Positions 8,859-57,477 of a DNA stretch of 64,000 nucleotides are shown here, one piece after another; positions within the stretch are counted from its first letter, which is position 1, and every line of letters begins with the position of its first letter. Both the position numbers and the translations under genes were made by a program. The stretch is from assembly GCA_963777505.1 (NCBI GenBank), contig CAVZQN010000004.1, positions 1,312,001 through 1,376,000 of the forward strand. The letters run 5' to 3'. The notes beneath the pieces are model-generated. The model ran no database searches and was not told where the DNA came from. It saw only the letters and a list, made by a program, of their open reading frames with translations. The DNA comes from an uncultured bacterium (GTDB taxonomy: Bacteria > Acidobacteriota > HRBIN11 > JAKEFK01).

Positions 8859-9113
8859 ATGTTGAAAAAGATTTCTTTCTATTTTTATGTTTTTTATTGC
8901 TTTGAAGTAGGAATTTTTTTACTTGTTGCGCCGTGGTGGCTTCCACAGATCTGGGAACAGAATTTCTTCTTCTTTTTTGTACCTTCCTTGAAAGAAGTAT
9001 TTCTAAATGGTTATTTTCGTGGAGCAGTCTCGGGCCTTGGAGTGTTAAATATTTTGCTTGGTGTCATTGAGATTTTTGAAAACGAACGATCGAAACAATT
9101 CGTCCAGCCATGA
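8859..9113 (+). CDS. Small hypothetical membrane protein
   Basis: Two hydrophobic segments (FEVGIFLLVAPW...W..N; RGAVSGLGVLN); ATGA overlap with the next gene. Confidence 0.7.
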   Translation: MLKKISFYFYVFYCFEVGIFLLVAPWWLPQIWEQNFFFFFVPSLKEVFLNGYFRGAVSGLGVLNILLGVIEIFENERSKQFVQP

Positions 9114-9715
9114 ATGCAGTTTCTGAAAGGTTTCTATATCATTTAATTACGGACCACAATCAATATAAACAGTCTTTGCATGAAGCAGCTCGTCTTGCTG
9201 AATTAAATCATGTAACACACTTTCAATTGCGTGAAAAAATGATGCAGAAAAGAGAATTGCTGGCTTTAGCGCAACATATTCGTCCAGCACTCCAGCATAC
9301 ACTGTTCATTATCAATGGCCATTTGGATGTTGCGCTTGCAAGTGAAGCCGATGGCATTCATCTGCAGGCCGACAACCTTCCGATCGCGACAGTGCGAAAA
9401 AAATATCCAGATTTAATTATTGGTTATTCTGCTCATTCGCGTGAAGAGGTTCTTCAAGCTGAATCCTCCGGAGCCGATTATGTTTTCCTTGGCCCTGTGT
9501 ACAGACCCCTTTCCAAAAATATTAGCAATTCACCGATCGGCCTTGAAAGATTTAGCGAATGGATTGCAGGAACGAATATTCCTGTTTTTGCTCTAGGTGG
9601 ACTCTCTGCATCAAATCTTCAAAGCGTTGCAAAAACCGGCTGCCGTGGAGCAGCGGGTATCTCGCTTTTCATACACGAGGGTCAGTTCACCGCTTCAGGG
9701 ATGGTGATTCAATGA
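9110..9715 (+). CDS. thiE: Thiamine phosphate synthase ThiE/TenI family protein
   Basis: FQLREK, IIN..LDVA....ADGIHL, IGYSAHS, DYVFLGPVY, PVFALGG motifs. Confidence 0.75.
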   Translation: MNAVSERFLYHLITDHNQYKQSLHEAARLAELNHVTHFQLREKMMQKRELLALAQHIRPALQHTLFIINGHLDVALASEADGIHLQADNLPIATVRKKYPDLIIGYSAHSREEVLQAESSGADYVFLGPVYRPLSKNISNSPIGLERFSEWIAGTNIPVFALGGLSASNLQSVAKTGCRGAAGISLFIHEGQFTASGMVIQ

Positions 9716-11583: not shown

Positions 11584-11643
11584 AGCTTGTGGTGAGTGGA
11601 TAGAGCAGGGGAGCTAGCTCCCTTGCACCCCTGCACCCCTGCA

Positions 11644-12103
11644 CCCTTTCATCATCAATGTCCCCACCAAGCCACACCCCTCCACTCAACTAATCCTATC
11701 CCAACGAATCATTGTGGTATGTCACCCCTGCTCCTTTCTCCCTTTCATCATCAATGTTCCCACAAATCACACCCCTCCACTCAACTAATCCTATCCCAAC
11801 GAATCATTGTGGAATGTCACCCCTGCTCCCTTTCTCCCTTTCATCATCAATGTCCCCACCAAACCACACCCCTCCACTCAACTAATCCTGTCCCAACGAA
11901 TCATTGTGGAATGTCACCCTGCTCCCTTTCTCCCTTTCTTCATCAATGTCCCTACCAAACCACGCCCCTCCACTCAACTAATCCTGTCCCAACGAATCAT
12001 TGTGGAATGTCACCCCTGCTCCCTTTCTCCCTTTCATCATCAAGGTTCCCACCAAACCACACCCCTCCACTCGAATAATCCTGTCGCAACGAATCATTGT
12101 GGT
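11644..12103. repeat. Tandem array of about five near-identical 96-97 bp units
   Basis: Units start at 11644, 11740, 11836, 11932 and 12029; core CCCCTCCACTCAACTAATCCTRTCCCAACGAATCATTGTGG; no unique spacers. Confidence 0.95.
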
Positions 12104-12114
12104 AATGGGAGGGG

Positions 12115-26448: not shown

Positions 26449-26548
26449 GGGGAGCAGAGGGGCGAGGAGCAGAGGAGCGGGGAGCGGAGGAGCAGAGGGG
26501 CGGGGAGCGGAGGAGCGGAGGAGCGGAGGGGCAGAGGAGCGGAGGGGC
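26449..26548. repeat. Octamer tandem repeat (about 12 x GGRGCRGR) between gmk and rpoZ
   Basis: GGAGCAGA/GGAGCGGA/GGGGCAGA units directly adjoining the gmk stop codon. Confidence 0.85.
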
Positions 26549-27174
26549 TAGTCGTTTGCGGAGAAGTCGTTGAGGATAGAGTCGATTCGGTCGGTCTGCA
26601 GCTCGCGTTTGCTTTCGGTGCTATGAATGATTCCGGAAAGGCTTTTGGAAGCATTATGCAAATCATCATTAATAATGATGTAATCAAATTCCCCAAATCG
26701 TAGAATTTCTTTCTTCGCATTTTCAAGACGTTTCAACATCACTTCTTCCGAATCTTTTTGACGAGCGAGTAATCTTCGTTTCAGCGCTTCATAGGATGGA
26801 GGCAAAACAAAAATGCTGATGGCATCAGGCATTCTTTCGCGAACTTGTCCGGCGCCTTGAACATCGATATCCAGAATCAGATCGCGATTTTCACTTTTTG
26901 CCCGATCAACAATTTCGCGGGATGTTCCATAAAAATGACCATGAACATTGGCCCATTCCAGAAAGCGATCTTCCTTGATCATCTGCAGAAAGCGCTGTTC
27001 ATCGATGAAAAAATATTCGACGCCATCGCGTTCGCCTGGCCGTGGTGGGCGCGTTGTATGGGATACAGAAAACAATAAGGAAGGATTTTCCGAAAGCAGC
27101 AGATCAATCAGAGTTGTTTTGCCGCTGCCCGAAGGCGCGGAGATGATGAAGATATTATTTTGCTGTTTCTTCAT
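26548..27174 (-). CDS. gmk: Guanylate kinase
   Basis: [45 protein letters not shown]. Confidence 0.97.
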
Positions 27175-40022: not shown

Positions 40023-40024
40023 AA

Positions 40025-40069
40025 CCTGCATTCTGCATCTTGAATCAGCCTCCTGAATCCTGAATCTTG
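40025..40069. repeat. Heptamer tandem repeat (CCTGMAT family) just after the amidase stop
   Basis: CCTGCAT TCTGCAT CTTGAAT ... CCTGAAT CCTGAAT. Confidence 0.6.
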
Positions 40070-40122
40070 TAGTAACTTTCCAATGGAGTAGTACGCTCAT
40101 AGTACTACCATGTGTATTGTTC

Positions 40123-40151
40123 TTGACATCTCACTATGCTTGTAGTAATAT
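40123..40151 (+). promoter_or_regulatory. Upstream putative sigma70 promoter (P1) before pilM
   Basis: TTGACA-17 nt-TAATAT. Confidence 0.55.
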
Positions 40152-40308
40152 CCCCGCTGATCCAGGAGGTTCCAGATTGCCTTTTTCTGCCTCAGGGGCG
40201 TATTTGTGGGGATGCTGAGATCCGCAATGGGAGCGGGTTTCCTGCATAGTACGATGGGCAAGAACCGCATGGGATCTGGATTTCGACCGAGTTTGTGACG
40301 ACCTTTCC

Positions 40309-40337
40309 TTGACAAGCAAGGGAGTTTTTGTTAACGT
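40309..40337 (+). promoter_or_regulatory. Proximal putative sigma70 promoter (P2) of pilMNOPQ
   Basis: TTGACA-17 nt-TAACGT with TG extension. Confidence 0.55.
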
Positions 40338-40368
40338 ACCGGAGAAATCCTGAAATAAGGAGAGACAA

Positions 40369-41430
40369 GTGGGGCTGTTCGGCAAACCCAAGGACCTGGT
40401 GGGACTCGACATCGGTTCACACTCCATAAAGCTCGTTGAATTTAAACAACGAGGCAAAGCCTTTGAACTAGTCAGCTTTGGCATTCAACCACTTCCACCC
40501 GATTCAATCGTTGAAGGCGCAATCATGGATTCATCTGCAGTAGCAGATGCAATCGACAGCCTTTTCGTAAATAACAACGTTAAAAGAACAGATGTTGCGA
40601 CATCTGTTTCCGGTGGTTCGGTTATTGTCAAAAAGATTTCACTTCCTTCAATGAGTGAAGGTGAACTGGCGGAATCGATCCGTTGGGAAGCCGAACAATA
40701 TATTCCCTTTCCGATTGATGAAGTGAATCTGGATCATAAAATCCTCCGTTCGAATGCCGGCCAGGGTGGCATGATGGATATCGTTCTGGTGGCAGTTAAA
40801 AAAGACATGATCGGATTTTATGCCAATGTTATTACTCAAGCAGGAAAGCGTCCTCTCGTTGTCGATGTAGATTCGTTTGCACTACAAAATGCGTTTGAGC
40901 TGAATTACAAATCGGATGTTCGTTCCGATGAAGTCATCGCATTGATCAATGTTGGTGCAAGCCTCATTAATATGAACATCATTCAGGGAGACATTTCCCT
41001 TTTCACTCGTGATATCGGCACAGGCGGAAATCTGTACACTGAAACAATTCAGCGTGAACTCAACCTGAGCCGCGAGAATGCAGAAAATATTAAGAAGGGA
41101 ATTGCTACTGATGGAATCGAACCTTCCTCCGCCGCATCCATCATTCAAGGAGTAACAGAAGACATCGCAGTGGATGTGCAGCGTACTCTTGATTTCTTTA
41201 AGGCAACCTCAACAGAAGAGCGGATCGACCGCATTTATATTGCCGGTGGATCTGCAAAGATACCAGGACTGCAGCAATATTTCCGTGAGAAATTTAACGC
41301 ACAAACAGAACTTCTAAATCCGTTTAAAAACGTGAAGTTGACCAATATTGATGCTGATTATCTACACGAAGTTGCGCCTGTTGCTACAGTTGCTGTGGGA
41401 TTGGCTTTAAGAAAGGCAGGAGATTCATGA
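40369..41430 (+). CDS. pilM: Type IV pilus assembly protein PilM
   Basis: VGLDIGSHSIKLVE, WEAEQYIPFPIDEVNLD, VDVDSFALQN, GGSAKIPGL, AVGLALR. Confidence 0.96.
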   Translation: MGLFGKPKDLVGLDIGSHSIKLVEFKQRGKAFELVSFGIQPLPPDSIVEGAIMDSSAVADAIDSLFVNNNVKRTDVATSVSGGSVIVKKISLPSMSEGELAESIRWEAEQYIPFPIDEVNLDHKILRSNAGQGGMMDIVLVAVKKDMIGFYANVITQAGKRPLVVDVDSFALQNAFELNYKSDVRSDEVIALINVGASLINMNIIQGDISLFTRDIGTGGNLYTETIQRELNLSRENAENIKKGIATDGIEPSSAASIIQGVTEDIAVDVQRTLDFFKATSTEERIDRIYIAGGSAKIPGLQQYFREKFNAQTELLNPFKNVKLTNIDADYLHEVAPVATVAVGLALRKAGDS

Positions 41431-42062
41431 TCAAAATAAACCTACTTGAGGTTGAAAAAGAACGCCGCCCATCGAAACCCGGAATTGCTTCAGCGGGAGT
41501 CGGTGGACCGACTGCGTTAATTGCCGCATTAATGATCGGGCTGGCAATCGGAGCATTTCTCCTGCACTACTTTATTAAAAAATCTCAACTCGCAACGCTT
41601 ACTAAAGATGTAATACAAAAACGAGAAAGAAAGAAGGAATTAGAACCGTATATCAAACGTGTTGATGAGTTGGAAAGACGAAGGAATGAGCTGGCCAAGA
41701 AAAATTATGCAATTGAAGAGTTACGCAGTCAGCGCACAATACCAGTTCATATTCTCGATGAAGTCAGCCGATCCATTCCTGAATATCTCTGGCTGACGAA
41801 CCTGACTTTGAAAGGCGCAGTTTTAAGTATTGATGGGGAAACTTTACAAGAACAAGCGATCCCCACACTTATGAAAACATTGGATTCTTCTCAGTTTATT
41901 GGAACGCCAAGGTTGATCGAAACGAAACAAAGAGCTACAACCGGTCAGCAAGCGGGTTCGAGTACACAGTTTAAACTTTCGGCGGCAATTACAAATCCAT
42001 TTAAACCAAAAGCGCCGGAAGTGAAAGAAACGACAACTAAGAAGCGCAAGAGCGCATCGTAG
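41427..42062 (+). CDS. pilN: Type IV pilus assembly protein PilN
   Basis: MIKINLL PilM-binding motif, TM helix, coiled coil, IPE.LWLT. Confidence 0.9.
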   Translation: MIKINLLEVEKERRPSKPGIASAGVGGPTALIAALMIGLAIGAFLLHYFIKKSQLATLTKDVIQKRERKKELEPYIKRVDELERRRNELAKKNYAIEELRSQRTIPVHILDEVSRSIPEYLWLTNLTLKGAVLSIDGETLQEQAIPTLMKTLDSSQFIGTPRLIETKQRATTGQQAGSSTQFKLSAAITNPFKPKAPEVKETTTKKRKSAS

Positions 42063-42075
42063 AGGAAACAGAACT

Positions 42076-42699
42076 ATGGCAATGTCAGATACCATTAAAG
42101 GTTGGCCCTGGTATGGGCAAGCTTTTCTGTTTCTACTAATCGGTGCAGCCTTGTTTTATGGCGGTCATCGTTTGTTGGTGAAACCGATTAACGAAGAAAT
42201 GTCACGCTTAAATATCGAAAGGGAAGAACTCATCGCTGAGATCAATAAAGGTGAAACTTTAAAAGCACGATTTATTGAATTTGAAGCTGAATTGAAACGG
42301 TTGGAAGGGCAGCTTGAATCTCTAAAAAGAATTCTGCCATCCACTGAAGAAATTGCTGATCTTTACAGCAGAATTCAGCAAGAAGGAACTGAATTGGGTT
42401 TGAATATCATGTTGTTCAAGCCAGGAAATCACGTTCCTAAGGAATACTATGACGAATGGCCGATTGCGATGACTTTAAGTGGTAACTACCACATTCTGGC
42501 CAAGTTTTTTGAACGGATCGGGAAATTGTATCGAATTATTAATGTGAATGATTTTGCTGTGAAGACCTCAACTGGCAGAGCAGCAGGAGTGGCGTCAAGC
42601 ACTACTATCCAAGCCACTTGTGTAGCGACTACCTTCATATATAAAGAGGGTACACCAGATGCCAAGACAACGACTAAGAAAAGGGGAGGTAGAACATGA
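42076..42699 (+). CDS. pilO: Type IV pilus assembly protein PilO
   Basis: TM plus coiled coil, LP..EEI..L, Y.E.PI.....GNYH....FF..I..L.RIINV. Confidence 0.92.
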   Translation: MAMSDTIKGWPWYGQAFLFLLIGAALFYGGHRLLVKPINEEMSRLNIEREELIAEINKGETLKARFIEFEAELKRLEGQLESLKRILPSTEEIADLYSRIQQEGTELGLNIMLFKPGNHVPKEYYDEWPIAMTLSGNYHILAKFFERIGKLYRIINVNDFAVKTSTGRAAGVASSTTIQATCVATTFIYKEGTPDAKTTTKKRGGRT

Positions 42700-43214
42700 A
42701 GAATCGTGGTCTTTTGCTTTTTCTTGTCCTTATTACTTTAACATTTGGGACTTTAACGGTGGCTCAGGCTCAAACTGCTGAGCCGGTTCCACCAGCTTCA
42801 GAACCTCCGTCACAAGTACCAAGCCTGACCTCATCAGTTGAGAAAAAGGCAGACTCACCAGAAACATACGATATCAGTTATAACTACGATCCGGCGAACC
42901 GTCGTGATCCTTTTATCAGTTTACTTACTGGAATCAAAGGTAAGAAAACACCACAAGGGCAGTTAACAGTAACAGATGCTAAAGTGGTAGGGATTACGCG
43001 GAACCGTGACGGCTACGTTGCAATCATCATGGGAGCTGATAAAAAGGCTCGATTTATGAAGCCTGGAGACAAGCTTTATGACGGAGCGGTGATCGCAATT
43101 GAAGCTGATCGTGTTATCTTCCGTCAGGACTTAACGGAAGATACACTCACTGCACCGGGTTTGAAATCAAAGGAAGTCGTTAAGAGGTTACATCCCGTCC
43201 AGGAGGGGACATAA
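42696..43214 (+). CDS. pilP: Type IV pilus assembly protein PilP-like
   Basis: Signal peptide, Y.YDP..RRDPF motif, beta domain with K.GDK..DG.V..I; between pilO and pilQ. Confidence 0.8.
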   Translation: MKNRGLLLFLVLITLTFGTLTVAQAQTAEPVPPASEPPSQVPSLTSSVEKKADSPETYDISYNYDPANRRDPFISLLTGIKGKKTPQGQLTVTDAKVVGITRNRDGYVAIIMGADKKARFMKPGDKLYDGAVIAIEADRVIFRQDLTEDTLTAPGLKSKEVVKRLHPVQEGT

Positions 43215-45820
43215 TGAGCAAACTTCATCCATGTTTGTTGTCCTTTCTGTTGATCCTTTCGTTTTTTGCGCCAGCTTTTGTACTGGCTGAGGATCTAGTA
43301 GGCATCAAAAACTTATCGTGGGAGGAACAGAAGAACCGTACGAAGATTGTGTTGGAAACATCACAACCACTCGTTTATACGGTCACCTCACCGCAATCCA
43401 CTTCGGAAGTTCATATTGAATTGGCGAATCTGGATTTGCGAAACATGCCTCAAGAGCTGTTTATAAATACAAGTGAAGTCGTTTCCCTCCGAACATTTCC
43501 TCAAACGGAAGGCCAGAAAGCAAAGATAATTCTGAAACTGGCATCGATACTTCCATATGAAGTGAAAACGGATGGCGCAAATCTCTATGTAGAGATTAAT
43601 GCCAAGGGACAAGGTGATGGTTTACTTGCCCCTGCTCCTACAATGACGTCACAGCCGGCACCAAAACAGGAAGAACCTGTAAAAGTGGAACCGATTCAGG
43701 AAGCAACACTTGCTCCAATTGAAGAGAAGCAATCGGAACCGGAAGTGAAGGCAGCTCCAACACCAGCGCCAGAGGAAATTGCAGAACTAAAAACTCTTGA
43801 ACCAGCTACAGAAGTACGTAGTGTGCGTATTGAAGAGCTGGAAAATAGAGTTGATGTTGTGCTGGTTGGAAATGGCTCGTTCCGATATGACGTTTTTGAG
43901 CTTTCTAATCCAAATCGCATTGTTATCGATTTGAAATCGGTCACAGTTGCAGCAGGAATTAAGAACGTTGTAGAAGGAAGCAATGAGATGCTTTCACGCG
44001 TGCGTGTAGCACAGTTTCAACAATCTCCTAAAATCGCGCGCGCGGTCATCGATTTGAATTCAAAAGTTCCATATACAATCAAACCAAAAGGTGCAGAACT
44101 TTTAGTTCATATTGGTGCAACTCCAAAGGATGATGCTGCTGCAATAAATCCAGAGCCATCCATTGCGAATTCTTCAGAACCTGCAATTGAAACACAACAG
44201 GAAGAGCAAACCGAAGAAGCTGTTCCAGAGCCAGTTCCAACAGAACCAGCTGCGATGGAAACAGAACCGGCTCCGGTTGAAATCTCTTCACTTCCTCCTG
44301 CTTCAATTGAACCAGTAAAGTTGGCCGCGAAAGATTCAGTTCCATCAGTGGAAAGCGCGGCAAAAACTGAAGAACCCATTACACAGGACAATGAACAGTT
44401 TTTTACTTTTAAGCCTGATACATCACTCTTCGCACAGGAAGGCAGCACCACTGGCAGTTCGACGACGGGTTCGTCGGGTACCGGTACGACTGGCGAAGGC
44501 GCTGGTGGATATGGGATGGGATCTTTTGGTGATAAAACACTTCGAAGTGGAGAAAAACAATATACAGGTGAACCATTCTCCTTCGATTTCAAAGATATTG
44601 ACATAAAAGATCTCTTCAGATTTATCGCTGATATTTCCGGACTCAATGTAATCCTGGATCCTGCTGTTAGAGGATCCGTAACTTTGAAACTTACTGAAGT
44701 ACCCTGGGATCAGGCTTTAGATCTGATCACAAAAAACCAGGGCCTTGGTTACACAATTGAAGGAAATGTCATTCGAATCGCACCGATTCAAAAGATCGCC
44801 GATGAAGAAAAGAAACGTGCTGATGCTGAACGTCAGCAGATGTTGAGCGCTCCTCTTGTTACAAAAATAAAACCGCTTAGCTATGCAAAAGCAAATGATG
44901 TAGACCGTGTAGTCAGGCGTTTGTTAACACCGAAAGGCAGCGCTATTGTTGATCCACGTACTAACACAATGATTATTACCGACATCAATACAAATATTGA
45001 TGCGATTATTAACTTGATCGATACGTTAGATTCCAGAACGGCTCAAGTTTTGATCGAAGCTCGTATTGTTGAAACAAACAAGAACTTCTCACAAGCTTTT
45101 GGTATTCAGTGGGGTTTCCGTGGAATCGTAGATCCTACATTTGGTAACAATACGACCTTGCAATTCCCGAACAATATTCTGGTTACTGGAAACAATTTGA
45201 CTCCAACAGCCGGAATAACAGGGAATCCATTGGGTGGATACGCAGTCAACCTGCCAACAGATCAAGCTCCGAATTCAGCGATCGGACTCTCGCTCGGAAA
45301 CATTCTTGATACGTTCAGGTTAGATCTTGCATTAATGGCATTGGAACAAAGCGGTAATGCACGCATCCTTTCATCGCCAAAAGTGGCTACCCAGAACAAT
45401 GCAAAGGCGGAAATTCTTCAAGGTGCACAAATTCCGTATCAAACAATTGCAAACAATACAATTACTACAACCTTCATCAATGCTGCACTCCGTATGTCCG
45501 TAACACCGCAGATTACTTCAGAAGGAACGATCATTATGGACATCGAAGTTGAAAACAACAGGCCAGATTTTACGCGATCTGTTGGAGCAGCTGGTGGAAC
45601 ACCGCCAATCAACATCGAACGCGCTACAACAACGCTTCTGGTTGAAGATGGCGGAACAACTGTGATTGGTGGAATTTTCCAAGCACAGGAACAATACACC
45701 CAAGGTCGAACGCCGGTCCTTCATCGCATTCCGCTTCTCGGCTGGCTGTTTAAGAACCAGAATGTCATTAGAGAAAACCGCGAACTGTTGATCTTTATCA
45801 CACCGCGGATCTTGCGTTAG
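43214..45820 (+). CDS. pilQ: Type IV pilus secretin PilQ with AMIN domains
   Basis: AMIN repeats; YTGE..S.DFKD.DI, V.L.L..VPWDQALD, D.RTN..II.D, QVLIEARIVE, IP.LGWLFK, ELLIFITPRI. Confidence 0.96.
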   Translation: MSKLHPCLLSFLLILSFFAPAFVLAEDLVGIKNLSWEEQKNRTKIVLETSQPLVYTVTSPQSTSEVHIELANLDLRNMPQELFINTSEVVSLRTFPQTEGQKAKIILKLASILPYEVKTDGANLYVEINAKGQGDGLLAPAPTMTSQPAPKQEEPVKVEPIQEATLAPIEEKQSEPEVKAAPTPAPEEIAELKTLEPATEVRSVRIEELENRVDVVLVGNGSFRYDVFELSNPNRIVIDLKSVTVAAGIKNVVEGSNEMLSRVRVAQFQQSPKIARAVIDLNSKVPYTIKPKGAELLVHIGATPKDDAAAINPEPSIANSSEPAIETQQEEQTEEAVPEPVPTEPAAMETEPAPVEISSLPPASIEPVKLAAKDSVPSVESAAKTEEPITQDNEQFFTFKPDTSLFAQEGSTTGSSTTGSSGTGTTGEGAGGYGMGSFGDKTLRSGEKQYTGEPFSFDFKDIDIKDLFRFIADISGLNVILDPAVRGSVTLKLTEVPWDQALDLITKNQGLGYTIEGNVIRIAPIQKIADEEKKRADAERQQMLSAPLVTKIKPLSYAKANDVDRVVRRLLTPKGSAIVDPRTNTMIITDINTNIDAIINLIDTLDSRTAQVLIEARIVETNKNFSQAFGIQWGFRGIVDPTFGNNTTLQFPNNILVTGNNLTPTAGITGNPLGGYAVNLPTDQAPNSAIGLSLGNILDTFRLDLALMALEQSGNARILSSPKVATQNNAKAEILQGAQIPYQTIANNTITTTFINAALRMSVTPQITSEGTIIMDIEVENNRPDFTRSVGAAGGTPPINIERATTTLLVEDGGTTVIGGIFQAQEQYTQGRTPVLHRIPLLGWLFKNQNVIRENRELLIFITPRILR

Positions 45821-45833
45821 GAGGAGGGAAACA

Positions 45834-46469
45834 ATGAGCATCAAAACTTTAAGACTAAAACCAGCGTTTTTGGTCCTCCTGGCTGTGGCTCTTATGAGCT
45901 ACGCTTGTTCGCGCGTGGAAGACAATACACGCTCCGGTTCGCTGCTTGTCGTAGAAAGCGTGGTTGGATCAGCCGGATCAGATGAGCAAGAACAGACGCC
46001 ATTGCTTTCAGATCTTTGTGAAGCGGAACCACCAGAATGTGATCAATGTTTCAGATTCAATGACAACGCTGTTGTTACATTCGCAAATGAATTTCTGCAA
46101 ATCGGACCTGGCTCAGGCGTGGGAAATGGTAGCTTCCTGAATGACATTATTGTAAATCGCTATCGTGTTGATTATTTCCGGCCTAATAACCGGAATACTC
46201 CTGGCGTAGACGTCCCATATGGGATCGATGGCACAATGAATGTTCGTATAACGCTAGGTGGAAGTGCCTCAGCTCCGATTATTGTTGTTCGGCATGTTCA
46301 AAAGAGAGAACCACCACTTTCTGATCTGATTCAATTGGGTCCTTTTGAAGATGTCATTACAACGCAATCTGAAATTAAGTTCTTTGGACAGGATGTAGCC
46401 GGTCGCACCGTGTCTGCATTTGGGTTCTTAGAAATCCATTTTGCGAACTTTGGGGATGAGGGGTGTTAA
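45834..46469 (+). CDS. Uncharacterised beta-rich lipoprotein directly downstream of pilQ
   Basis: AGGAGG SD; lipobox-like MSYAC; C-terminal LEIHFANFGD strand. Confidence 0.75.
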   Translation: MSIKTLRLKPAFLVLLAVALMSYACSRVEDNTRSGSLLVVESVVGSAGSDEQEQTPLLSDLCEAEPPECDQCFRFNDNAVVTFANEFLQIGPGSGVGNGSFLNDIIVNRYRVDYFRPNNRNTPGVDVPYGIDGTMNVRITLGGSASAPIIVVRHVQKREPPLSDLIQLGPFEDVITTQSEIKFFGQDVAGRTVSAFGFLEIHFANFGDEGC

Positions 46470-46498
46470 TCATGGTCAGGAAGGTGTCGGAGGGAATT

Positions 46499-47989
46499 AT
46501 GAGAGCGAAATTCAGCTCGCGTACGTTTAAAAATGCGATGATTTTGCTTGTTCTGCTTACAGGCGCTATTGTTGTGAGCAGTTGTCGTAGCGATGAGGTA
46601 GAAATACCACCGCTTACCGGGCCAAGCGGCGCACGATTATTCTTACAGATTCAGGCAAATCCCGACCATTTAGTAATGCATGAGCCCGGGCGTCCCCGCG
46701 AAACATCAGAAATTACAATTCAATTGAAGAATCATCTTGGACAAGGAGTCCCTGGTGAGAACTTAAAACTTCGTATCTTAAACCGTACATTTAATGAAGT
46801 AAATATCGGACGGCTCAGTGATTTCAATGTACGGACCGATGGATCTGGTTTTGCGCGCGTGATCTATACAGCTCCCGATACAAGCGAATTATTTGACGCA
46901 ACAAGGATCATTATTCGTGCAGTTCTCACGAATGCTGCGTATCCAGATGAAGTAACGGATAATCATGAAATTGAACTTCAACGCTCTTCCGTTGATCCTG
47001 GAGAATGCGCAGGAGATCTATTCCCGCAAGGTGAAGTCTCCGTAAGTCCGTCCAGCCCAGTGGTAAATGAAACTGTCTGTTTCAATGCAACGGCAGTCTT
47101 CCCAACGGCTGAAGAATTCTTCTGGGATTTTGGAAATGGTGATACAGCCCAAAGTGGTAGCGGCCAAACCGTTTGTACTTCTTTTGGTAGTGATGGAACA
47201 TTCACTGTCAGCTTATTGGCTAGAAGCAATGATCGTGATTGCGGTGAAATAAGTTTCGCCGTTGTTGTAGAAGAAGGTGAACCGGCGACATGTACAATTA
47301 CATTCTCACCGTCCCCAGTGCTTGAGGGTCAGGATGTGACATTCATCGCAACGACAACTGACAATGATGGTGACGTAAGACGGTTCAGTTGGAACTTCGG
47401 CGATGGGTCGACGCAAAACACAAATAGTGGGACCGTTACGCATGATTATGATGAAGCGGGCACCTACACCGTCGTGTTAACCATTACGGATGATCAAGGT
47501 AATATCTCGACGTGTACAACCACAGTCACTGTATCGGCGGAGCAGGAAGGAGATCCTATTTGCTCGTTCACAGTCAGCCCGACGAACATACTGGCAAACA
47601 CTACACCTGTATCAGCCAATGCTACGGCGAGCGACGACGATGACGGTGAAATTGTCACGTATTTCGTTGATTGGGGCGATGGCTCAGCGCCAGATACGTT
47701 GAACTGTCCGAACGGCGTATGTCCGGGCACATTTGCGATCATCAATAAGTCAAGTGGACCGTACACATCGGAAGGAAGCTTCACGGTTACACTGTTAGTA
47801 GTTGACGATGATGGCAACGACTCAAGCTGTACGCAGCAGGTCACAGTGTGTCCGTCCACAGGATGTCCTACAGGGGATGCCCAGTGTTCGGATGGAATCG
47901 ACAATGATTCCGATGGTTTCACTGACTTTAGCCCGACGCCAGGAATCGGTGATCCTCAGTGCTCAAGTGCCACGGATGACACTGAGTAG
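46499..47989 (+). CDS. Lipoprotein with an invasin/Big_1-like domain, three PKD domains and a C-terminal Cys/Asp calcium-binding motif
   Basis: Lipobox-like VVSSC; TDGSGFARVIYTAP; WDFGNG, WNFGDG, DWGDG; CSDGIDNDSDGFTD...DPQC. Confidence 0.8.
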   Translation: MRAKFSSRTFKNAMILLVLLTGAIVVSSCRSDEVEIPPLTGPSGARLFLQIQANPDHLVMHEPGRPRETSEITIQLKNHLGQGVPGENLKLRILNRTFNEVNIGRLSDFNVRTDGSGFARVIYTAPDTSELFDATRIIIRAVLTNAAYPDEVTDNHEIELQRSSVDPGECAGDLFPQGEVSVSPSSPVVNETVCFNATAVFPTAEEFFWDFGNGDTAQSGSGQTVCTSFGSDGTFTVSLLARSNDRDCGEISFAVVVEEGEPATCTITFSPSPVLEGQDVTFIATTTDNDGDVRRFSWNFGDGSTQNTNSGTVTHDYDEAGTYTVVLTITDDQGNISTCTTTVTVSAEQEGDPICSFTVSPTNILANTTPVSANATASDDDDGEIVTYFVDWGDGSAPDTLNCPNGVCPGTFAIINKSSGPYTSEGSFTVTLLVVDDDGNDSSCTQQVTVCPSTGCPTGDAQCSDGIDNDSDGFTDFSPTPGIGDPQCSSATDDTE

Positions 47990-48031
47990 AAAGTGTTGAT
48001 CTAGATTTTAGGATAGGGTAGAATTTGTTTG

Positions 48032-48059
48032 GGGCCAGGTGATGAACCTGGCCCTTTTT
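48032..48059 (+). terminator. Rho-independent terminator
   Basis: GGGCCAGGT-gatga-ACCTGGCCC followed by TTTTT. Confidence 0.8.
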
Positions 48060-48087
48060 CTGTTTGTTACTAATGTAGTAGTTGAAA

Positions 48088-49293
48088 ATGATGAAAGTTG
48101 CTCGGCGCTTGTTGATACTCCTGGGTGTTGTTCTTTTCATTGCCAATTGTGATCAAGTTGATTTCACGGCGCCGCAGGGTTCAACTTTAACCATCACAAT
48201 TCAGCCGCCGGCAGTAGCGACATTTGGCAATGCCAACATCACTGTTATTGGAACACGTGGTACCGGTGCTCCGTTGCCGGATGGAACGGTGATTCATTTC
48301 ACTTCAAATCTTGGAACTATTACTCCCAACCCGGCTGAAACAGATAATGGTGTAGCTACCGCTCAATTCCGCTCTGGCAGCCGTTCAGGCACAGCTACCA
48401 TTACAGCCACTTCTGGGGATTCAGAAGAATCGAGTGTAGAAGTTATCATTGGCGAAGCACGCCCGGCGCAGGTCATTCTCATTTCAACGCCATCCGATTT
48501 GCCATTTGGTGGAGGATCGGTGAGGCTCACTGCGCATGTCACTGATGAAGATGGAAATCCACTCGCAGGAATTGCGGTATTTTTTGAATCGACTTCGGGA
48601 GAATTAGCTTCAGGCGGACGTACCGTCCGCACAAATGATGCTGGAATTGCGACCGATACATTGACAACAAGCATTGATGCAGAAGTCACTGCTACAACAG
48701 CAAACGGAATTTCATCAGAGGCTCAAGCAATTGATGTATCGCCTGGCGAAGGTCCGGAATGTAGTTTTGTATTCTCACCGCCTAATCCAGAGCCTGGAGA
48801 AACAGTTACCTTTACAAGCACTTCAACGAATCCGGATAATCCAATTGTCGATTTCTTCTGGGATTTTGGTGATGGCGAAACGGCTGAAGGGCCTATTGTT
48901 ACACATGAATTCGAAGTTGCCGGCACCTATACAGTTGTTCTTACCGTTGTAGATGAGTTCGGATTCAGTTCAATCTGTACTGAGGAAGTCGTTGTTGAGA
49001 TTGATCTGCCAGATTGTTCATTTGAAATTACTCCTGATTTACCCGATGAAGGTGAGACTGTCGCGTTTGATGCGTCACAATCCACAGATGAAACGGGAAT
49101 TGCATCGTTCGAATGGTCCTTTGGTGATGGATCACCCACCGTTGAAGAAACCGATCCATTCACGACCCATGTTTACAGCTTCCCTGATTGCAGTGGTGGC
49201 GCAGATCGAACCGTACAGGTCAGCCTTATCGTGACCGATAACGAGGGTGCGACAAACTTCTGTTCTTTACCTCTGACAATCGCGTGCCAGTAG
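48088..49293 (+). CDS. Lipoprotein with two Big_1-like and two PKD domains
   Basis: Lipobox-like FIANC; P.PDGT.I.F.S.LG, DGNPLAGI.V.F, TNDAG.A; WDFGDG, WSFGDG. Confidence 0.8.
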   Translation: MMKVARRLLILLGVVLFIANCDQVDFTAPQGSTLTITIQPPAVATFGNANITVIGTRGTGAPLPDGTVIHFTSNLGTITPNPAETDNGVATAQFRSGSRSGTATITATSGDSEESSVEVIIGEARPAQVILISTPSDLPFGGGSVRLTAHVTDEDGNPLAGIAVFFESTSGELASGGRTVRTNDAGIATDTLTTSIDAEVTATTANGISSEAQAIDVSPGEGPECSFVFSPPNPEPGETVTFTSTSTNPDNPIVDFFWDFGDGETAEGPIVTHEFEVAGTYTVVLTVVDEFGFSSICTEEVVVEIDLPDCSFEITPDLPDEGETVAFDASQSTDETGIASFEWSFGDGSPTVEETDPFTTHVYSFPDCSGGADRTVQVSLIVTDNEGATNFCSLPLTIACQ

Positions 49294-49404: not shown

Positions 49405-50562
49405 ATGTCCACCCCCGCTATCGATAAATTACTCAGAAAATTGGAGAAAGAGCCTACTTCGTTAATTTTCCTCCAATTGGCGGAGGAGTATCGTAAAGAA
49501 AGCTATTATGATGATGCGCTTTTCGTGTGTCAGGAAGGTCTCAAAAGACATCCAAATTATTGGTCTGCAAGGGTTGCACTGGGCCGGATCCACAAAGAAA
49601 TGGGCCATATCGATCTTGCACGGGAAGAACTTGAAAAGGTCATTAAGGCAGTTCCCGACAATTTATTAGCAAATAAATTGCTGGGTGACATTTATATGGA
49701 ATTGAATTTGAATCCGGAAGCTTTAAAACGGTATCAACTTGTACAGATGTTGACGCCCGCAGATGCAGAAGTTATCAATAACATCCAAAAACTTGAGATG
49801 CGTATTACAGGCGTTACTGCGCCGGTTGATCCGCCAACACTGGTGGAAGAACTAAAGATAGATCAAAATATGATGCCTCCTACTACAGTAGAAATGCTGA
49901 TTCCACGCAATCCAGGTTCTGAAATAAAAACAGAAGAGTTTCCTCAACTTACATTTCAGAATGATTTACCGCCATTTACGGATGATCTTCCGGGCTTTCT
50001 TGAAAAAACTTCACCGGGCACAGCATCACCTGCAGTTTTACAAGAATTTTTTGATTCGACAAATATTGAGCCATCTTCTTCCAATGAGCAGGCTCACGCA
50101 GTTGCGTTTGAGGAATCCCGATCCTATTCAGAGGTGGCCGTAGAATCGAGCGCTGATGGCTTTGACTTTCCTGAACTTGAACCTGTTCCTCAAAAAGTTG
50201 ATCAAACTCAACCGATGGAAGATGGTGAAGCAGATGAGTTAACGACTCAGACGCTTGCAGATTTATACGTTCAGCAGGGATTAATCGACAAAGCGACAAA
50301 GGTCTACCAAAAGCTGTTGCTAAACGATCCTGGAAACAACGAGATTATTCAACGCTTAAAAGATCTCAATCCAGCTGATGCACTTCTTTCGGCAGCGGCT
50401 GCGCAAGAACAAAAATTACGAGTAGCCTCTTCGAAGCCGAAAACAATGGACCGTTCAGCCGGCAATTCATCACGCATGCCGGATCGACTCAGTGAAGAGC
50501 GCAGACGGAAAATCAGCACTCTTGAAAATTGGCTTGCTGCGATTCGCAGAGAACGTTTATAA
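49405..50562 (+). CDS. TPR protein with acidic linker
   Basis: F.QLAEEYRK, GLKRHPNY.SARV.LG TPRs; T.TLADLY.QQG..DKA..VY..LL; C-terminal LENWL..I. Confidence 0.8.
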   Translation: MSTPAIDKLLRKLEKEPTSLIFLQLAEEYRKESYYDDALFVCQEGLKRHPNYWSARVALGRIHKEMGHIDLAREELEKVIKAVPDNLLANKLLGDIYMELNLNPEALKRYQLVQMLTPADAEVINNIQKLEMRITGVTAPVDPPTLVEELKIDQNMMPPTTVEMLIPRNPGSEIKTEEFPQLTFQNDLPPFTDDLPGFLEKTSPGTASPAVLQEFFDSTNIEPSSSNEQAHAVAFEESRSYSEVAVESSADGFDFPELEPVPQKVDQTQPMEDGEADELTTQTLADLYVQQGLIDKATKVYQKLLLNDPGNNEIIQRLKDLNPADALLSAAAAQEQKLRVASSKPKTMDRSAGNSSRMPDRLSEERRRKISTLENWLAAIRRERL

Positions 50563-50578
50563 GGCATAGGGCAGGGAT

Positions 50579-50935
50579 ATGTTTGCAGTCACCTTAAAAG
50601 AAATCGCAAATCGCATGGATGATGTTGAATGTATTTTATTGATGGGAACAGATGGCCTGGCCATTGAAAAAGTAGTAAAAAGCGAATCAGTAAATACTGA
50701 GTTATTGATTGCAGAATTCACAACCATCCTTCGGAATACCGCACAGACAGCCGCAGAAGTGAATGCCGGTGATTTAGAAGAGTTCATCCTGTTAACCGAT
50801 CGTCTGATTGTTATGCTAAAAGCAATCACTCAGGAATATTTCTTAGTACTAATATTATCTGGTGGCGGGAACATCGGCAGAGCGCGGTTTGAACTGAAAA
50901 AAGCCAAATATATTCTTGAAAAGGAATTTGTATAA
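50579..50935 (+). CDS. Roadblock/LC7 domain protein, MglC-like
   Basis: MF...LKEI......LMG.DGL.IE; YFLVL.L..GGN.GRARF.LKK; pilQ-TPR-roadblock-accBC synteny. Confidence 0.75.
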   Translation: MFAVTLKEIANRMDDVECILLMGTDGLAIEKVVKSESVNTELLIAEFTTILRNTAQTAAEVNAGDLEEFILLTDRLIVMLKAITQEYFLVLILSGGGNIGRARFELKKAKYILEKEFV

Positions 50936-52926: not shown

Positions 52927-53545
52927 ATGAATTTTGAAACACCATTTCTCTATCCTGTTCTCGATGACACTCGAAGCGTTAACCTAAAGCAGGATGCTCT
53001 GGAAATCATTCGTGCAGGCGCTAAAATTTTTCAGATCCGTGCAAAAAGGTTAACCAATCGCGAAATGTTTGACGTTGTGCAAAGCATTCTCCCGCATTGC
53101 ATCGAGCCTGGCGTTTCCCTCATTGTAAATGACCGTGTAGATGTTTGTCTTGCAAGTCGTGCATCAGGTGTTCATTTAGGACAGGATGATTTTCCCGTTC
53201 CGGAAACAAGGAAACTGTTGCCAGATGCAATCATCGGACTCTCAACACACAATCTGAATCAGGTCACGTGCAGCAAACGATTTACCGGTGGATTACATTT
53301 CAATAGGACCTGTTTTTCCAACTACCTCGAAAATGAATCCCGATCCTGCTGTTGGAATTTCATTCTTGCAGCAAGCCCGATCGATGACTACCAAACCAAT
53401 CGTTTGTATTGGGGGAATTCAAGCAGCGACTATTCCTGATCTTATAAATGAAGGCGCAAATGGTATCGCGGTGATTGGAGAAATCTACAATGGCAATGAT
53501 ATTTTCAACTCAACCAAACGATTGCTACAATTGATAAAAAAGTAG
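52927..53545 (+). CDS. thiE: Thiamine phosphate synthase ThiE, split by a frameshift near 53268
   Basis: [27 protein letters not shown] in one frame; [22 protein letters not shown] in the +1 frame. Confidence 0.85.
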
Positions 53546-54752: not shown

Positions 54753-55592
54753 ATGAAGCGTACGTTCTTCGTACCAGTCCTGATTGTCGTTTTTTTCTCA
54801 CTGACACTTGTTTCCTGTGGACAATTTAAGGCAAAGATGGAGGTCAAGAAAGGGAACGAACTCTATGGTGCCAAAAAGTACGAGGAAGCGATCAAACATT
54901 ACAAGCAGGCACTAAAATACGACAAAGATATGGATACAGTTAATCTAAATATGGCCCTCAGCTATATGGCTTTATATGTGCCAGGCTCTACCCACCCCAA
55001 AGATGTTGAATACGCCAACCAGGCAATCGCGCAATTCAAAGAGTATCTTAAGAACAAACCCGATGATCCAAAAGTAAATGAATATTTGATCACAATGTTT
55101 TTGAACGCAGAGCGCACCGATGACGCAATTGCATATTTTGAAAATCACTTAAAAAAGAATCCAACTGATGTAAGCACGATGCAAAAGCTAGCATTTATCT
55201 ATGCGAAATCGGGGAAATTTGACGAGGCATTGAGATGGTATCAACGTCGAACAGAAGTTGAGCCAAATAATGCTGAGGCATTTTACGTAATCGGCGTGAT
55301 TTGTTGGGAAAAGTCGTATAAGTTTGCTGATGTCACTCCGGAGGAACGGGAGCGCTTAATCAAACTCGGGATGGATTCTCTGGATCGAGCTATGCAGTTG
55401 AATCCTAAATATTCGGAAGCGTACCTATATATGAATCTGTTATATCGTGAAAAAGCAAAAATGATTTCACCAGATCCAAATCTATTTCCTGTACCGGACG
55501 AAAAGATTGATGAATATAACGGTTATTTGCAGAAGGCGAAAGAACTTCAGGACAAAGCCGTTGAAATTCGCAAGCAGCAAACTCCGTCTTAG
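54753..55592 (+). CDS. TPR-repeat lipoprotein
   Basis: Lipobox LVSC; multiple TPRs; AAGGAG SD. Confidence 0.8.
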   Translation: MKRTFFVPVLIVVFFSLTLVSCGQFKAKMEVKKGNELYGAKKYEEAIKHYKQALKYDKDMDTVNLNMALSYMALYVPGSTHPKDVEYANQAIAQFKEYLKNKPDDPKVNEYLITMFLNAERTDDAIAYFENHLKKNPTDVSTMQKLAFIYAKSGKFDEALRWYQRRTEVEPNNAEAFYVIGVICWEKSYKFADVTPEERERLIKLGMDSLDRAMQLNPKYSEAYLYMNLLYREKAKMISPDPNLFPVPDEKIDEYNGYLQKAKELQDKAVEIRKQQTPS

Positions 55593-55605
55593 GAGGATAT
55601 GAAAT

Positions 55606-56352
55606 ATGTGGGATGACACACTTATAGAATCGAGAGGTTCAAAAGAAGGTAAAGGGAAGAAATATACACTCGCGGGTGCGATGGCACTGCATGTACTCGT
55701 AATAGCGGTTATGATTGGTGCTTCGTACTGGTTTGTTGAAGCGGTTCAACCGCCTCCAATTCCAGTCACATTGTTATCAGCGCCGCCACCCCCGCCACCC
55801 CCTCCTCCTGCGGCCCCAAAGAAAAAGGCTCCTGAAACGCCAAAAGAAGAAGTAAAACCAATTGAACCACAAGAAGAATTTCAGCCGACAGAAGTACCAG
55901 AAGAACTCCCGACTCCTGAAGATATACAAGAAGATACAGGTGTTGACGGTGGAGTTGAAGGTGGTGTTGAAGGCGGTGTCGAAGGTGGTGTTCCCGGTGG
56001 AGTCCTTGGAGGAGTTCCGGGCGGAGTCATCGGTGGAGTACCCGGAGGTTTAGGTGATGAAACTCCAATGCGGATTACCGCTGAGGTAAAACAACCTGAA
56101 CTTGTAAAGAAAGTAGAACCCCAGTATCCAGAAATTGCGCGTAAAGCAAGAATCCAGGGTGTCGTCATTCTGGAAGCTGTTATTACAAAAGAAGGAACAG
56201 TTGAAGGTGTAAAAGTCTTAAGAGCTTTACATCCGATTCTTGATCAAGCAGCTGTGAATGCTGTACGCCAATGGAAATATAAGCCCGCTTTATTAAATGG
56301 CCGTCCAGTAAAAGTATACTTTACGGTCACTGTAAAATTTACGTTACGCTAA
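55606..56352 (+). CDS. tonB: Energy transducer TonB
   Basis: TM helix with His, poly-Pro, GGVxGG repeats, YPEIARKARIQGVVILEAVI..LDQAA..AVRQWKYKP TonB_C domain. Confidence 0.92.
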   Translation: MWDDTLIESRGSKEGKGKKYTLAGAMALHVLVIAVMIGASYWFVEAVQPPPIPVTLLSAPPPPPPPPPAAPKKKAPETPKEEVKPIEPQEEFQPTEVPEELPTPEDIQEDTGVDGGVEGGVEGGVEGGVPGGVLGGVPGGVIGGVPGGLGDETPMRITAEVKQPELVKKVEPQYPEIARKARIQGVVILEAVITKEGTVEGVKVLRALHPILDQAAVNAVRQWKYKPALLNGRPVKVYFTVTVKFTLR

Positions 56353-56375
56353 CAGTTGATTAGGAGGAAATTGTC

Positions 56376-57071
56376 ATGGATTTTGGAGTACTAGGCCTGT
56401 GGAATGCAATGGGTTACATGGGTAAAGCAGTAGTTATACTTCTTGCCCTGATGTCCATTTACTCGCTTGGCTTGATGATAGAGCGTTATCTTACGTATAA
56501 CGCCGCCAAGAAACAATCCTTGAAGTTTGCGACACAAGCAACTCAATTATTGAAACAAAATAAGCTGAAAGAAGTCATTCAGCTTTCTAAAACCTATAAG
56601 AAAAGCCATCTCGCTAAAGTGGTATCGGCTGGTTTATATGAATTTACATATGAACAAGAAAATCCCGGTGCGCAAGCGGGATTTGATGTCATTGAAGCCG
56701 CTAAAAGGGCAATTGAACGTGCAACGGCTATGACAGGTGCGGAATTAAAACGCGGAATTGGAGCTCTTGCTACAATTGGTTCAACTGCTCCTTTCGTTGG
56801 ATTATTCGGAACGGTTTTCGGGATCATCCACGCGTTTGAAACAATGGCAGTTGCCGGCGGCGGTGGATTGGGTACAGTTTCAGCTGGTATCGCGGAAGCT
56901 CTTTACACGACTGCGTTCGGTCTTCTAGTGGCTATCCCCGCAGTTTGGGCTTTTAACTATTTCACGAACAGAATCGAACGATTTAACATCGAGATGTCGA
57001 ATTCCGCGAATGAATTGATTGATTTCTTCATCAAACAACGCGGAGGTACACATGCAAACAGGGTCAGCTGA
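56376..57071 (+). CDS. exbB: MotA/TolQ/ExbB proton channel protein
   Basis: LATIGSTAPFVGLFGTVFGI, GIAEAL.TTA.GL.VAIPAV..FNYF. Confidence 0.9.
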   Translation: MDFGVLGLWNAMGYMGKAVVILLALMSIYSLGLMIERYLTYNAAKKQSLKFATQATQLLKQNKLKEVIQLSKTYKKSHLAKVVSAGLYEFTYEQENPGAQAGFDVIEAAKRAIERATAMTGAELKRGIGALATIGSTAPFVGLFGTVFGIIHAFETMAVAGGGGLGTVSAGIAEALYTTAFGLLVAIPAVWAFNYFTNRIERFNIEMSNSANELIDFFIKQRGGTHANRVS

Positions 57072-57477
57072 AGCTGGTGATGTCCGATCGGACATAAACG
57101 TAACACCTCTTGTCGATGTCGTTCTCGTTTTGTTAATCATCTTTATGGTGGTTACGCCGATGCTCCAAAAAGGAGTACCTGTTGAATTGCCGGTAACAAA
57201 GAATCCGGACAAAAAGCCGGATAGTGAGAATCAATCTATTGTTTCGGTAAAGTCAGACGCAACCATCTATATTGAACAAAACTGGGTACCAAAAACAGAA
57301 CTTGTTACGCAATTGAAAGAAATGCATGATCGAAATCCAAGCAAAGAGATTTTGATTAAAGGCGATTCAAGATTGATGTACAAAGACATTAAAAAGGTGA
57401 TGGATATGATTAACGAGGCAGGGTTTGAAAACGTTGGTCTCATCACTGATAAAGTCGAAGACGGTACCGGCGGTTAA
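57052..57477 (+). CDS. exbD: ExbD/TolR family protein
   Basis: DINVTPLVDVVLVLLIIFMV; GGAGG SD before ATG 57052. Confidence 0.9.
   Translation: MQTGSAEAGDVRSDINVTPLVDVVLVLLIIFMVVTPMLQKGVPVELPVTKNPDKKPDSENQSIVSVKSDATIYIEQNWVPKTELVTQLKEMHDRNPSKEILIKGDSRLMYKDIKKVMDMINEAGFENVGLITDKVEDGTGG

What the first reader, a model, noticed from the sequence alone, without database searches (positions are those of the whole stretch)
45834..49293. Three uncharacterised lipoproteins appended to pilMNOPQ: candidate secretin-associated surface module
Seen: three ORFs with lipobox-like Cys (MSYAC, VVSSC, FIANC) follow pilQ directly. The first has a strong SD a few bases after the pilQ stop, and the first terminator comes only after the second gene, so two of them appear co-transcribed with the secretin. 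Two carry invasin/Big_1-like and PKD domains; the first is a beta-rich unknown ending in an amphipathic strand. Known: canonical pilMNOPQ operons lack such genes, and the characterised type IVa pilus pilotins (PilF/PilW/Tgl) are TPR proteins. Bacteroidia type V pili polymerise from beta-sandwich lipoprotein precursors. Inference: these could form an outer-membrane cap or adhesin on the secretin, or a separate lipoprotein-derived fibre.
Basis: partly seen in the sequence, partly recalled or inferred. Interest (0 to 1): 0.75.

Follow-up and report, generated by a model that had tools for sequence, protein, structure and literature searches.

The report
Conserved lipoprotein pair behind pilus secretin
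In a group of soil and sediment bacteria (Acidobacteriota), two undescribed membrane-anchored proteins are encoded directly behind the gene for the pilus exit pore and probably form a collar or cap on that pore, while the third protein flagged here is a local add-on.

The parts
40123..40151 (+). sigma-70-like promoter candidate upstream of pilM
   Evidence: 10 of 12 matches; promoter-like sites in the region are no more frequent than chance (16 vs 20), so a candidate only
40369..41430 (+). pilM
   Evidence: PF11104 E 1e-79
41427..42062 (+). pilN
   Evidence: PF05137 E 8e-16
42076..42699 (+). pilO
   Evidence: PF04350 E 2e-30
42696..43214 (+). pilP-like
   Evidence: position in operon; weak PF11356 T2SSC hit E 1e-4
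43214..45820 (+). pilQ secretin: 2 AMIN, N0/STN, N3, secretin domain; ends a few residues after the last strand (no S domain)
   Evidence: TIGR02515 above cut-off; Pfam; closest solved relative 3jc8 PilQ, E 3e-58; tail of 3-6 aa in 78 relatives
45820..45828 (+). ribosome-binding site of Lp1, overlapping the pilQ stop (translational coupling inferred)
   Evidence: sequence; gap pilQ stop to Lp1 start -11 to 34 nt, median 10, in 79 loci
45834..46469 (+). Lp1: lipoprotein (Cys25, codon 45906), single Ig-like beta-sandwich, undescribed family; core component, candidate secretin cap or belt
   Evidence: no Pfam or NCBIfam family; 632 clusters; AlphaFold2 pLDDT 91; behind pilQ in 80 of 80 loci
46499..47989 (+). 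Lp2: lipoprotein (Cys29, codon 46583); conserved tether with GPS motif and Big_1 domain (46583-47002), then 3 PKD domains and an acidic disulfide repeat; core component
   Evidence: family follows Lp1 in 78 of 80 loci
48031..48065 (+). intrinsic terminator closing pilMNOPQ-Lp1-Lp2
   Evidence: z -4.6
48088..49293 (+). Lp3: lipoprotein (Cys codon 48148), 2 Big_1 and 2 PKD; accessory, adjacent only in this lineage
   Evidence: no separate gene in 80 loci; 7 shared contig lengths with Lp1 relatives among its closest relatives

Best explanation
In Vicinamibacteria, Aminicenantes and the window's lineage the type IVa pilus operon has seven genes: pilMNOPQ-Lp1-Lp2. Shown: both extra genes are lipoprotein-type, tightly spaced behind pilQ, inside the unit that the terminator closes, and Ig-fold. 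Inferred mechanism: Lp1 is made in step with PilQ, lipidated and sent to the outer membrane. It docks one per protomer on the secretin through the conserved loops at its lipid-anchored end, forming a ring that caps the outer face of the pore (the beta-lip), as GspT does in Deinococcus. Lp2 docks on the same assembly through its fixed-length tether and first Big_1 domain. Its variable PKD/Big_1 tail is a lineage-tuned stalk or spacer. The likely role is to stabilise or shield the pore and give it an outer interaction surface during pilus extrusion or DNA uptake. Lp3 is a related Big_1-PKD surface lipoprotein that sits next to the operon in this lineage only, probably with its own or read-through transcription. 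Probability that Lp1 is a secretin-bound subunit on either side of the membrane: about 0.75; the confidence given is for the outer-cap version.
Confidence: 0.45

Rival explanations
1. [quoted passage not shown]
For: Same linkage data. Pilotins are periplasmic outer-membrane lipoproteins of varied folds (PMC12531336; PMC10653833). No Tgl/PilW-family gene lies in the operon: the downstream TPR protein has no signal peptide and is far below cut-off. GspP is an Ig lipoprotein belt on a secretin lacking an S domain. The P0390 fusion points the same way.
Against: Lp1's only secretin-associated fold match among the 50 rows shown is the cap subunit. Lp2 and Lp3 tails (PKD arrays, invasin-type domains, acidic disulfide repeat) are typical of exposed proteins (recalled). 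P0390 is a single short contig, and the second apparent fusion, P0391, is frameshift debris. A true Tgl/PilF may be encoded elsewhere; genomes could not be surveyed.
Confidence: 0.3
2. Lp1 and Lp2 are cargo or pilus-associated adhesins that use the PilQ machine to reach the surface and are not stable parts of the pore.
For: Invasin/intimin-type and PKD domains; variable tail length in Lp2, 131-588 aa mature; one Lp1 relative carries a C-terminal PKD-like domain (P0267, read by eye).
Against: Lp1 is nearly constant in size and strongly conserved, single-copy in each of the 80 loci, and tightly coupled to pilQ. This fits a stoichiometric subunit better than an adhesin.
Confidence: 0.13
3. The genes are operon passengers: envelope lipoproteins kept behind pilQ by inherited gene order, with no link to the pilus machine. 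This probably holds for Lp3.
For: The 80 loci come from two or three related classes and are not independent. Lp3 is lineage-restricted and lies beyond the terminator.
Against: The genes on both sides of the seven-gene block were replaced several times while Lp1-Lp2 stayed; overlapping or near-zero spacing to pilQ.
Confidence: 0.09
4. The lipoproteins polymerise into a type V-like fibre by protease-triggered donor-strand exchange.
For: Lipoprotein precursors with beta-sandwich folds; the N- and C-terminal strands of Lp1 both belong to the sandwich.
Against: Type V pilins have two transthyretin-like domains (PMC13655056). Lp1 is one Ig-like domain with its last strand built in at pLDDT about 97. 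No FimA/Mfa family is hit by any of 121 members. Lp2 and Lp3 are Big_1/PKD arrays.
Confidence: 0.03

Closest known systems
Deinococcus radiodurans secretin complex DR_0774 with cap GspT (DR_0940) and belt GspP (DR_1364), PDB 8CO1
   Different: No sequence similarity detected. The Deinococcus genes are not in the secretin operon. GspP is IPT/TIG-type, Lp2 is Big_1-type and often carries PKD tails; GspP is not among the 50 rows shown for Lp2. Binding is shown there and untested here.
Thermus thermophilus PilQ crown
   Same: Separate extracellular module on a type IVa secretin (PMC5745081).
   Different: The crown protein was unidentified in that paper, so no comparison was possible.
Myxococcus-type type IVa pilus machine (pilMNOPQ, AMIN-bearing PilQ, Tgl pilotin)
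   Same: Closest solved PilQ is 3jc8 (E 3e-58, shared beta-lip motif); AMIN domains; SgmX-like and Roadblock genes in the window.
   Different: Its pilotin Tgl is a TPR protein acting transiently; no Lp1 locus from Myxococcota among the 80 examined.
Other secretin partners: TsaP, BfpG, AspS, PulS, MxiM, InvH, TadD
   Same: Dedicated accessory proteins around a secretin (PMC12531336).
   Different: None appears among the 50 best fold matches of Lp1 or Lp2; TsaP and BfpG are not lipoproteins.
Invasin/intimin Big_1 stalk domains and PKD-repeat surface proteins
   Different: No beta-barrel anchor and no lectin-like tip domain; lipid-anchored instead.

Membership tests
Type IVa pilus pilMNOPQ operon | pilM, N, O, P, Q in order with a PilQ-type secretin | tested here: met
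   (TIGR02515 404.8 vs cut-off 284); pilP only by position and a weak hit
GspT-like secretin cap (Lp1) | Lipoprotein of about 200 aa | tested here: met
   211 aa, Cys25; lipobox in 110 of 116 relatives; own pattern, not SignalP
GspT-like secretin cap (Lp1) | Same fold as GspT | tested here: inconclusive
GspT-like secretin cap (Lp1) | Sequence homology to DR_0940 | tested here: inconclusive
   no PDB hit to 8CO1 at E up to 10 with three profiles; no profile-profile comparison was possible
GspT-like secretin cap (Lp1) | Ring bound to the extracellular rim of the secretin | not tested
   no complex prediction was obtained; needs modelling or cryo-EM
GspP-like belt (Lp2) | Single Ig-fold lipoprotein domain on a short tether | tested here: met
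   (Big_1 rather than IPT/TIG subtype)
GspP-like belt (Lp2) | Periplasmic ring on the secretin wall | not tested
   no complex model; GspP not among the rows shown
PilF/PilW/Tgl pilotins | TPR (all-helical) lipoprotein | tested here: not met
   Lp1 and Lp2 models are beta-sandwiches; no TPR or pilotin HMM hit for any of the three
Pilotin in the functional sense | Needed for secretin targeting or multimerisation | not testable with these tools
   needs a deletion mutant
Type V pilins (FimA/Mfa1) | Lipoprotein precursor | tested here: met
Type V pilins (FimA/Mfa1) | Two transthyretin-like beta-sandwich domains | tested here: not met
   Lp1 is one 187-aa Ig-like domain; Lp2 and Lp3 are Big_1/PKD arrays; definition from PMC13655056
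Type V pilins (FimA/Mfa1) | Protease-triggered donor-strand exchange | not tested
   no oligomer model; the C-terminal strand is integral in the monomer model
   0 of 80 loci hold a separate Lp3 gene; the Lp3 profile hits only Lp2 genes; indirect linkage only in the window's own lineage

The most novel reading that the evidence does not exclude
Lp1 is a distant homologue of the Deinococcus GspT cap. A separate lipoprotein cap on the secretin would then be an old, overlooked part of type IV filament machines shared by very distant phyla. In Acidobacteriota it would be operon-encoded and joined by Lp2, which would ring the pilus exit with a multivalent crown of Ig/PKD stalks of lineage-specific length. 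This would also suggest what kind of protein the Thermus crown is.
Probability: 0.2. Interest if true: 0.8.

Novelty: new variant of a known kind. Interest (0 to 1): 0.6.

Why it matters
Lp1 is a large family (632 clusters at 50% identity) with no Pfam or NCBIfam entry and, in the loci examined, a fixed place behind pilQ. It can now be given a testable role. If the reading holds, the pilus secretin of abundant, little-cultured soil and sediment Acidobacteriota has two dedicated Ig-fold lipoprotein subunits not in the standard type IVa model. Extra rings on secretins outside Proteobacteria (Deinococcus cap and belt, Thermus crown) would be a recurring design. Luteitalea-type strains make it testable by a single cryo-EM preparation. 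I found no description of this gene pair in three library searches aimed at it (listings and abstracts only) or in a follow-up search on GspT; subscription journals are not covered.

Tried and rejected
PilQ-Lp1 complex prediction: not obtained, so the interface is untested. Mutual-information coupling between PilQ and Lp1 on 71 paired rows (effective number 50): scattered pairs, uninformative. Sequence searches of the PDB with three Lp1 profiles: nothing below E 0.1. Foldseek on PDB: no match at E 0.001; viral library: one unnamed match, TM 0.34. ESM Atlas: only unnamed Acidobacteriota clusters, and no usable named cluster. Lp1 and Lp2's first domain are not paralogues by hhalign (probability 0.4); Lp2's first domain matches Lp3's second Big_1 domain (97%), which is domain-level only. 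No type V pilin, TsaP, BfpG or GspP among the 50 rows of the fold searches; unlisted families are not excluded. Apparent PilQ-Lp1 fusions: 2 of 8000 candidates scored; P0391 rejected as frameshift debris, P0390 kept only as a weak lead, with its sources unchecked. No Lp1 on plasmids. No Rfam family in the window at gathering thresholds, so no known riboswitch before pilM. Record titles naming Bacillota (8), Actinomycetota (7) or Betaproteobacteria (1) were rejected as evidence of wider range: they nest among Aminicenantes or Vicinamibacteria in a quick PilQ tree of 71 rows (the careful tree did not finish). The reading of Lp1's last strand as a barrel or BAM signal was rejected. Metagenome and viral contig neighbourhoods stayed unchecked.

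Full report
Observation. The three ORFs exist as described. pilQ (43214-45820; TIGR02515 above cut-off) is followed 13 nt later by Lp1 (45834-46469) behind a strong ribosome site overlapping the pilQ stop. Lp2 most likely starts at 46499, and Lp3 at 48088 or 48091. Each has a hydrophobic stretch ending in a lipobox Cys (my own pattern). The one convincing terminator is 48031-48055 with its U-run (z -4.6, 0 of 200 shuffles), so pilMNOPQ-Lp1-Lp2 reads as one unit. Promoter-like sites lie before pilM, before Lp3 and before the downstream TPR gene, but such sites are no commoner than chance.

Lp1 is a large undescribed family. It hits no Pfam or NCBIfam model, and no Pfam family is shared by more than 1 of 121 relatives. 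A profile finds 632 representatives at 50% clustering, of which the best 150 were listed. Of 116 full-length listed hits, 110 have a lipobox. AlphaFold2 on 121 sequences gives one Ig-like beta-sandwich, pLDDT 91, with the last strand built in. Conservation is concentrated in loops 59-77, 116-130, 153-174 and 203-208 (16 positions at 90% or more) against 1 in loops 47-56, 88-104, 140-143 and 186-191. By strand alternation the conserved set lies at the end where the lipid tether enters; this is inferred from the secondary-structure order, as I had no coordinates.

Linkage. The genome scan confirmed 514 matches and returned the best 80; the pattern used would miss variants like the window's own. 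In 79 loci pilQ ends -11 to 34 nt (median 10) before Lp1, and the 80th shows the PilQ C-terminus at its contig edge. All 57 loci with enough room hold pilM, N, O and Q, and 55 hold a detected pilP. An Lp2-family gene follows in 77 loci by lipobox filter plus L039 by BLAST, two of them broken in the assembly; the last two contigs end 33 and 196 nt after Lp1. The flanks vary: rplM-like 20, rpsB-like 18, coaD-like 12 and other 3 of 53 upstream; TPR gene 49, convergent priA-like 15, peptidase-like 4 and other 1 of 69 downstream (labels recalled from the translations). The window's amidase and xerC are in none. Sixteen records carry titles from other phyla, but all nest among Aminicenantes or Vicinamibacteria in a quick PilQ tree of 71 rows (10 loci left out for incomplete or unmatched domains). 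The range seen is therefore Acidobacteriota. The loci are related and not independent, and since the search started from Lp1 it does not say how many pilQ operons lack it.

Lp3. Its N-terminal part finds no separate gene in the 80 loci; a profile of 120 relatives hits only Lp2 genes. That is indirect evidence that Lp3 sits beside the operon in this lineage only.

Verdict. Shown: a conserved seven-gene operon with two Ig-fold lipoproteins, and Lp3 as a local extra. Inferred: Lp1 binds the secretin as a ring (about 0.75), on the outside as a cap (0.45) or inside as a belt or pilotin (0.3). Cargo or adhesin (0.13), passenger (0.09) and type V fibre (0.03) are less likely. No interface was modelled, and the side of the membrane is unknown. 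Novelty: a new variant of the type IVa pilus machine with a precedent in Deinococcus. No description of the pair appeared (listings and abstracts; bioRxiv supplements and subscription journals unseen). Interest 0.6.

Noticed in passing
window 5081-8794 +: 1237-aa TPR protein matching the SgmX model (NF052243, E 1e-89, below cut-off), suggesting Myxococcus-like pilus regulation in this lineage.
   Followed up: no
window 49405-50935 +: TPR gene without signal peptide and a Roadblock/LC7 gene (MglB/MglC-like by recall) between the operon and accBC; a TPR gene directly follows Lp2 in 49 of 69 loci. PMC4719450 passages gave no neighbourhood data.
   Followed up: partly
window 11626-12107: Five tandem copies of a 96-bp unit (92% matches) between convergent genes; no Rfam match.
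   Followed up: no
window 52927-53545 +: thiE-like gene split over two overlapping frames (52927-53439 and 53288-53545), a frameshift or sequencing error; a second thiE-like gene lies at 9110-9715.
   Followed up: no
window 54753-57477 +: TPR lipoprotein ahead of tonB-exbB/tolQ-exbD/tolR; weak PilW and Tgl hits far below cut-off, no BLAST match in the 80 loci, so not treated as the pilotin.
   Followed up: partly
window 40023-40368: 346-nt leader between the amidase gene and pilM with a good promoter match and several hairpins; no Rfam family.
   Followed up: partly
L004, L007, L009, L010, L015, L023, L026, L040, L030, L032, L033, L035, L054, L073, L076, L077: Record titles name Bacillota, Actinomycetota or Betaproteobacteria, but PilQ and gene order place them with Aminicenantes or Vicinamibacteria: probably mislabelled genomes.
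   Followed up: yes
proteins P0390, P0267: P0390: PilQ joined to Lp1 without its signal peptide, single contig. P0267: Lp1 with a C-terminal PKD-like domain. Both unverified.
   Followed up: partly
window 26451-26545: Short G/A-rich tandem repeat (period 8 or 23) just beyond the end of the gene at 26548-27174 on the minus strand.
   Followed up: no
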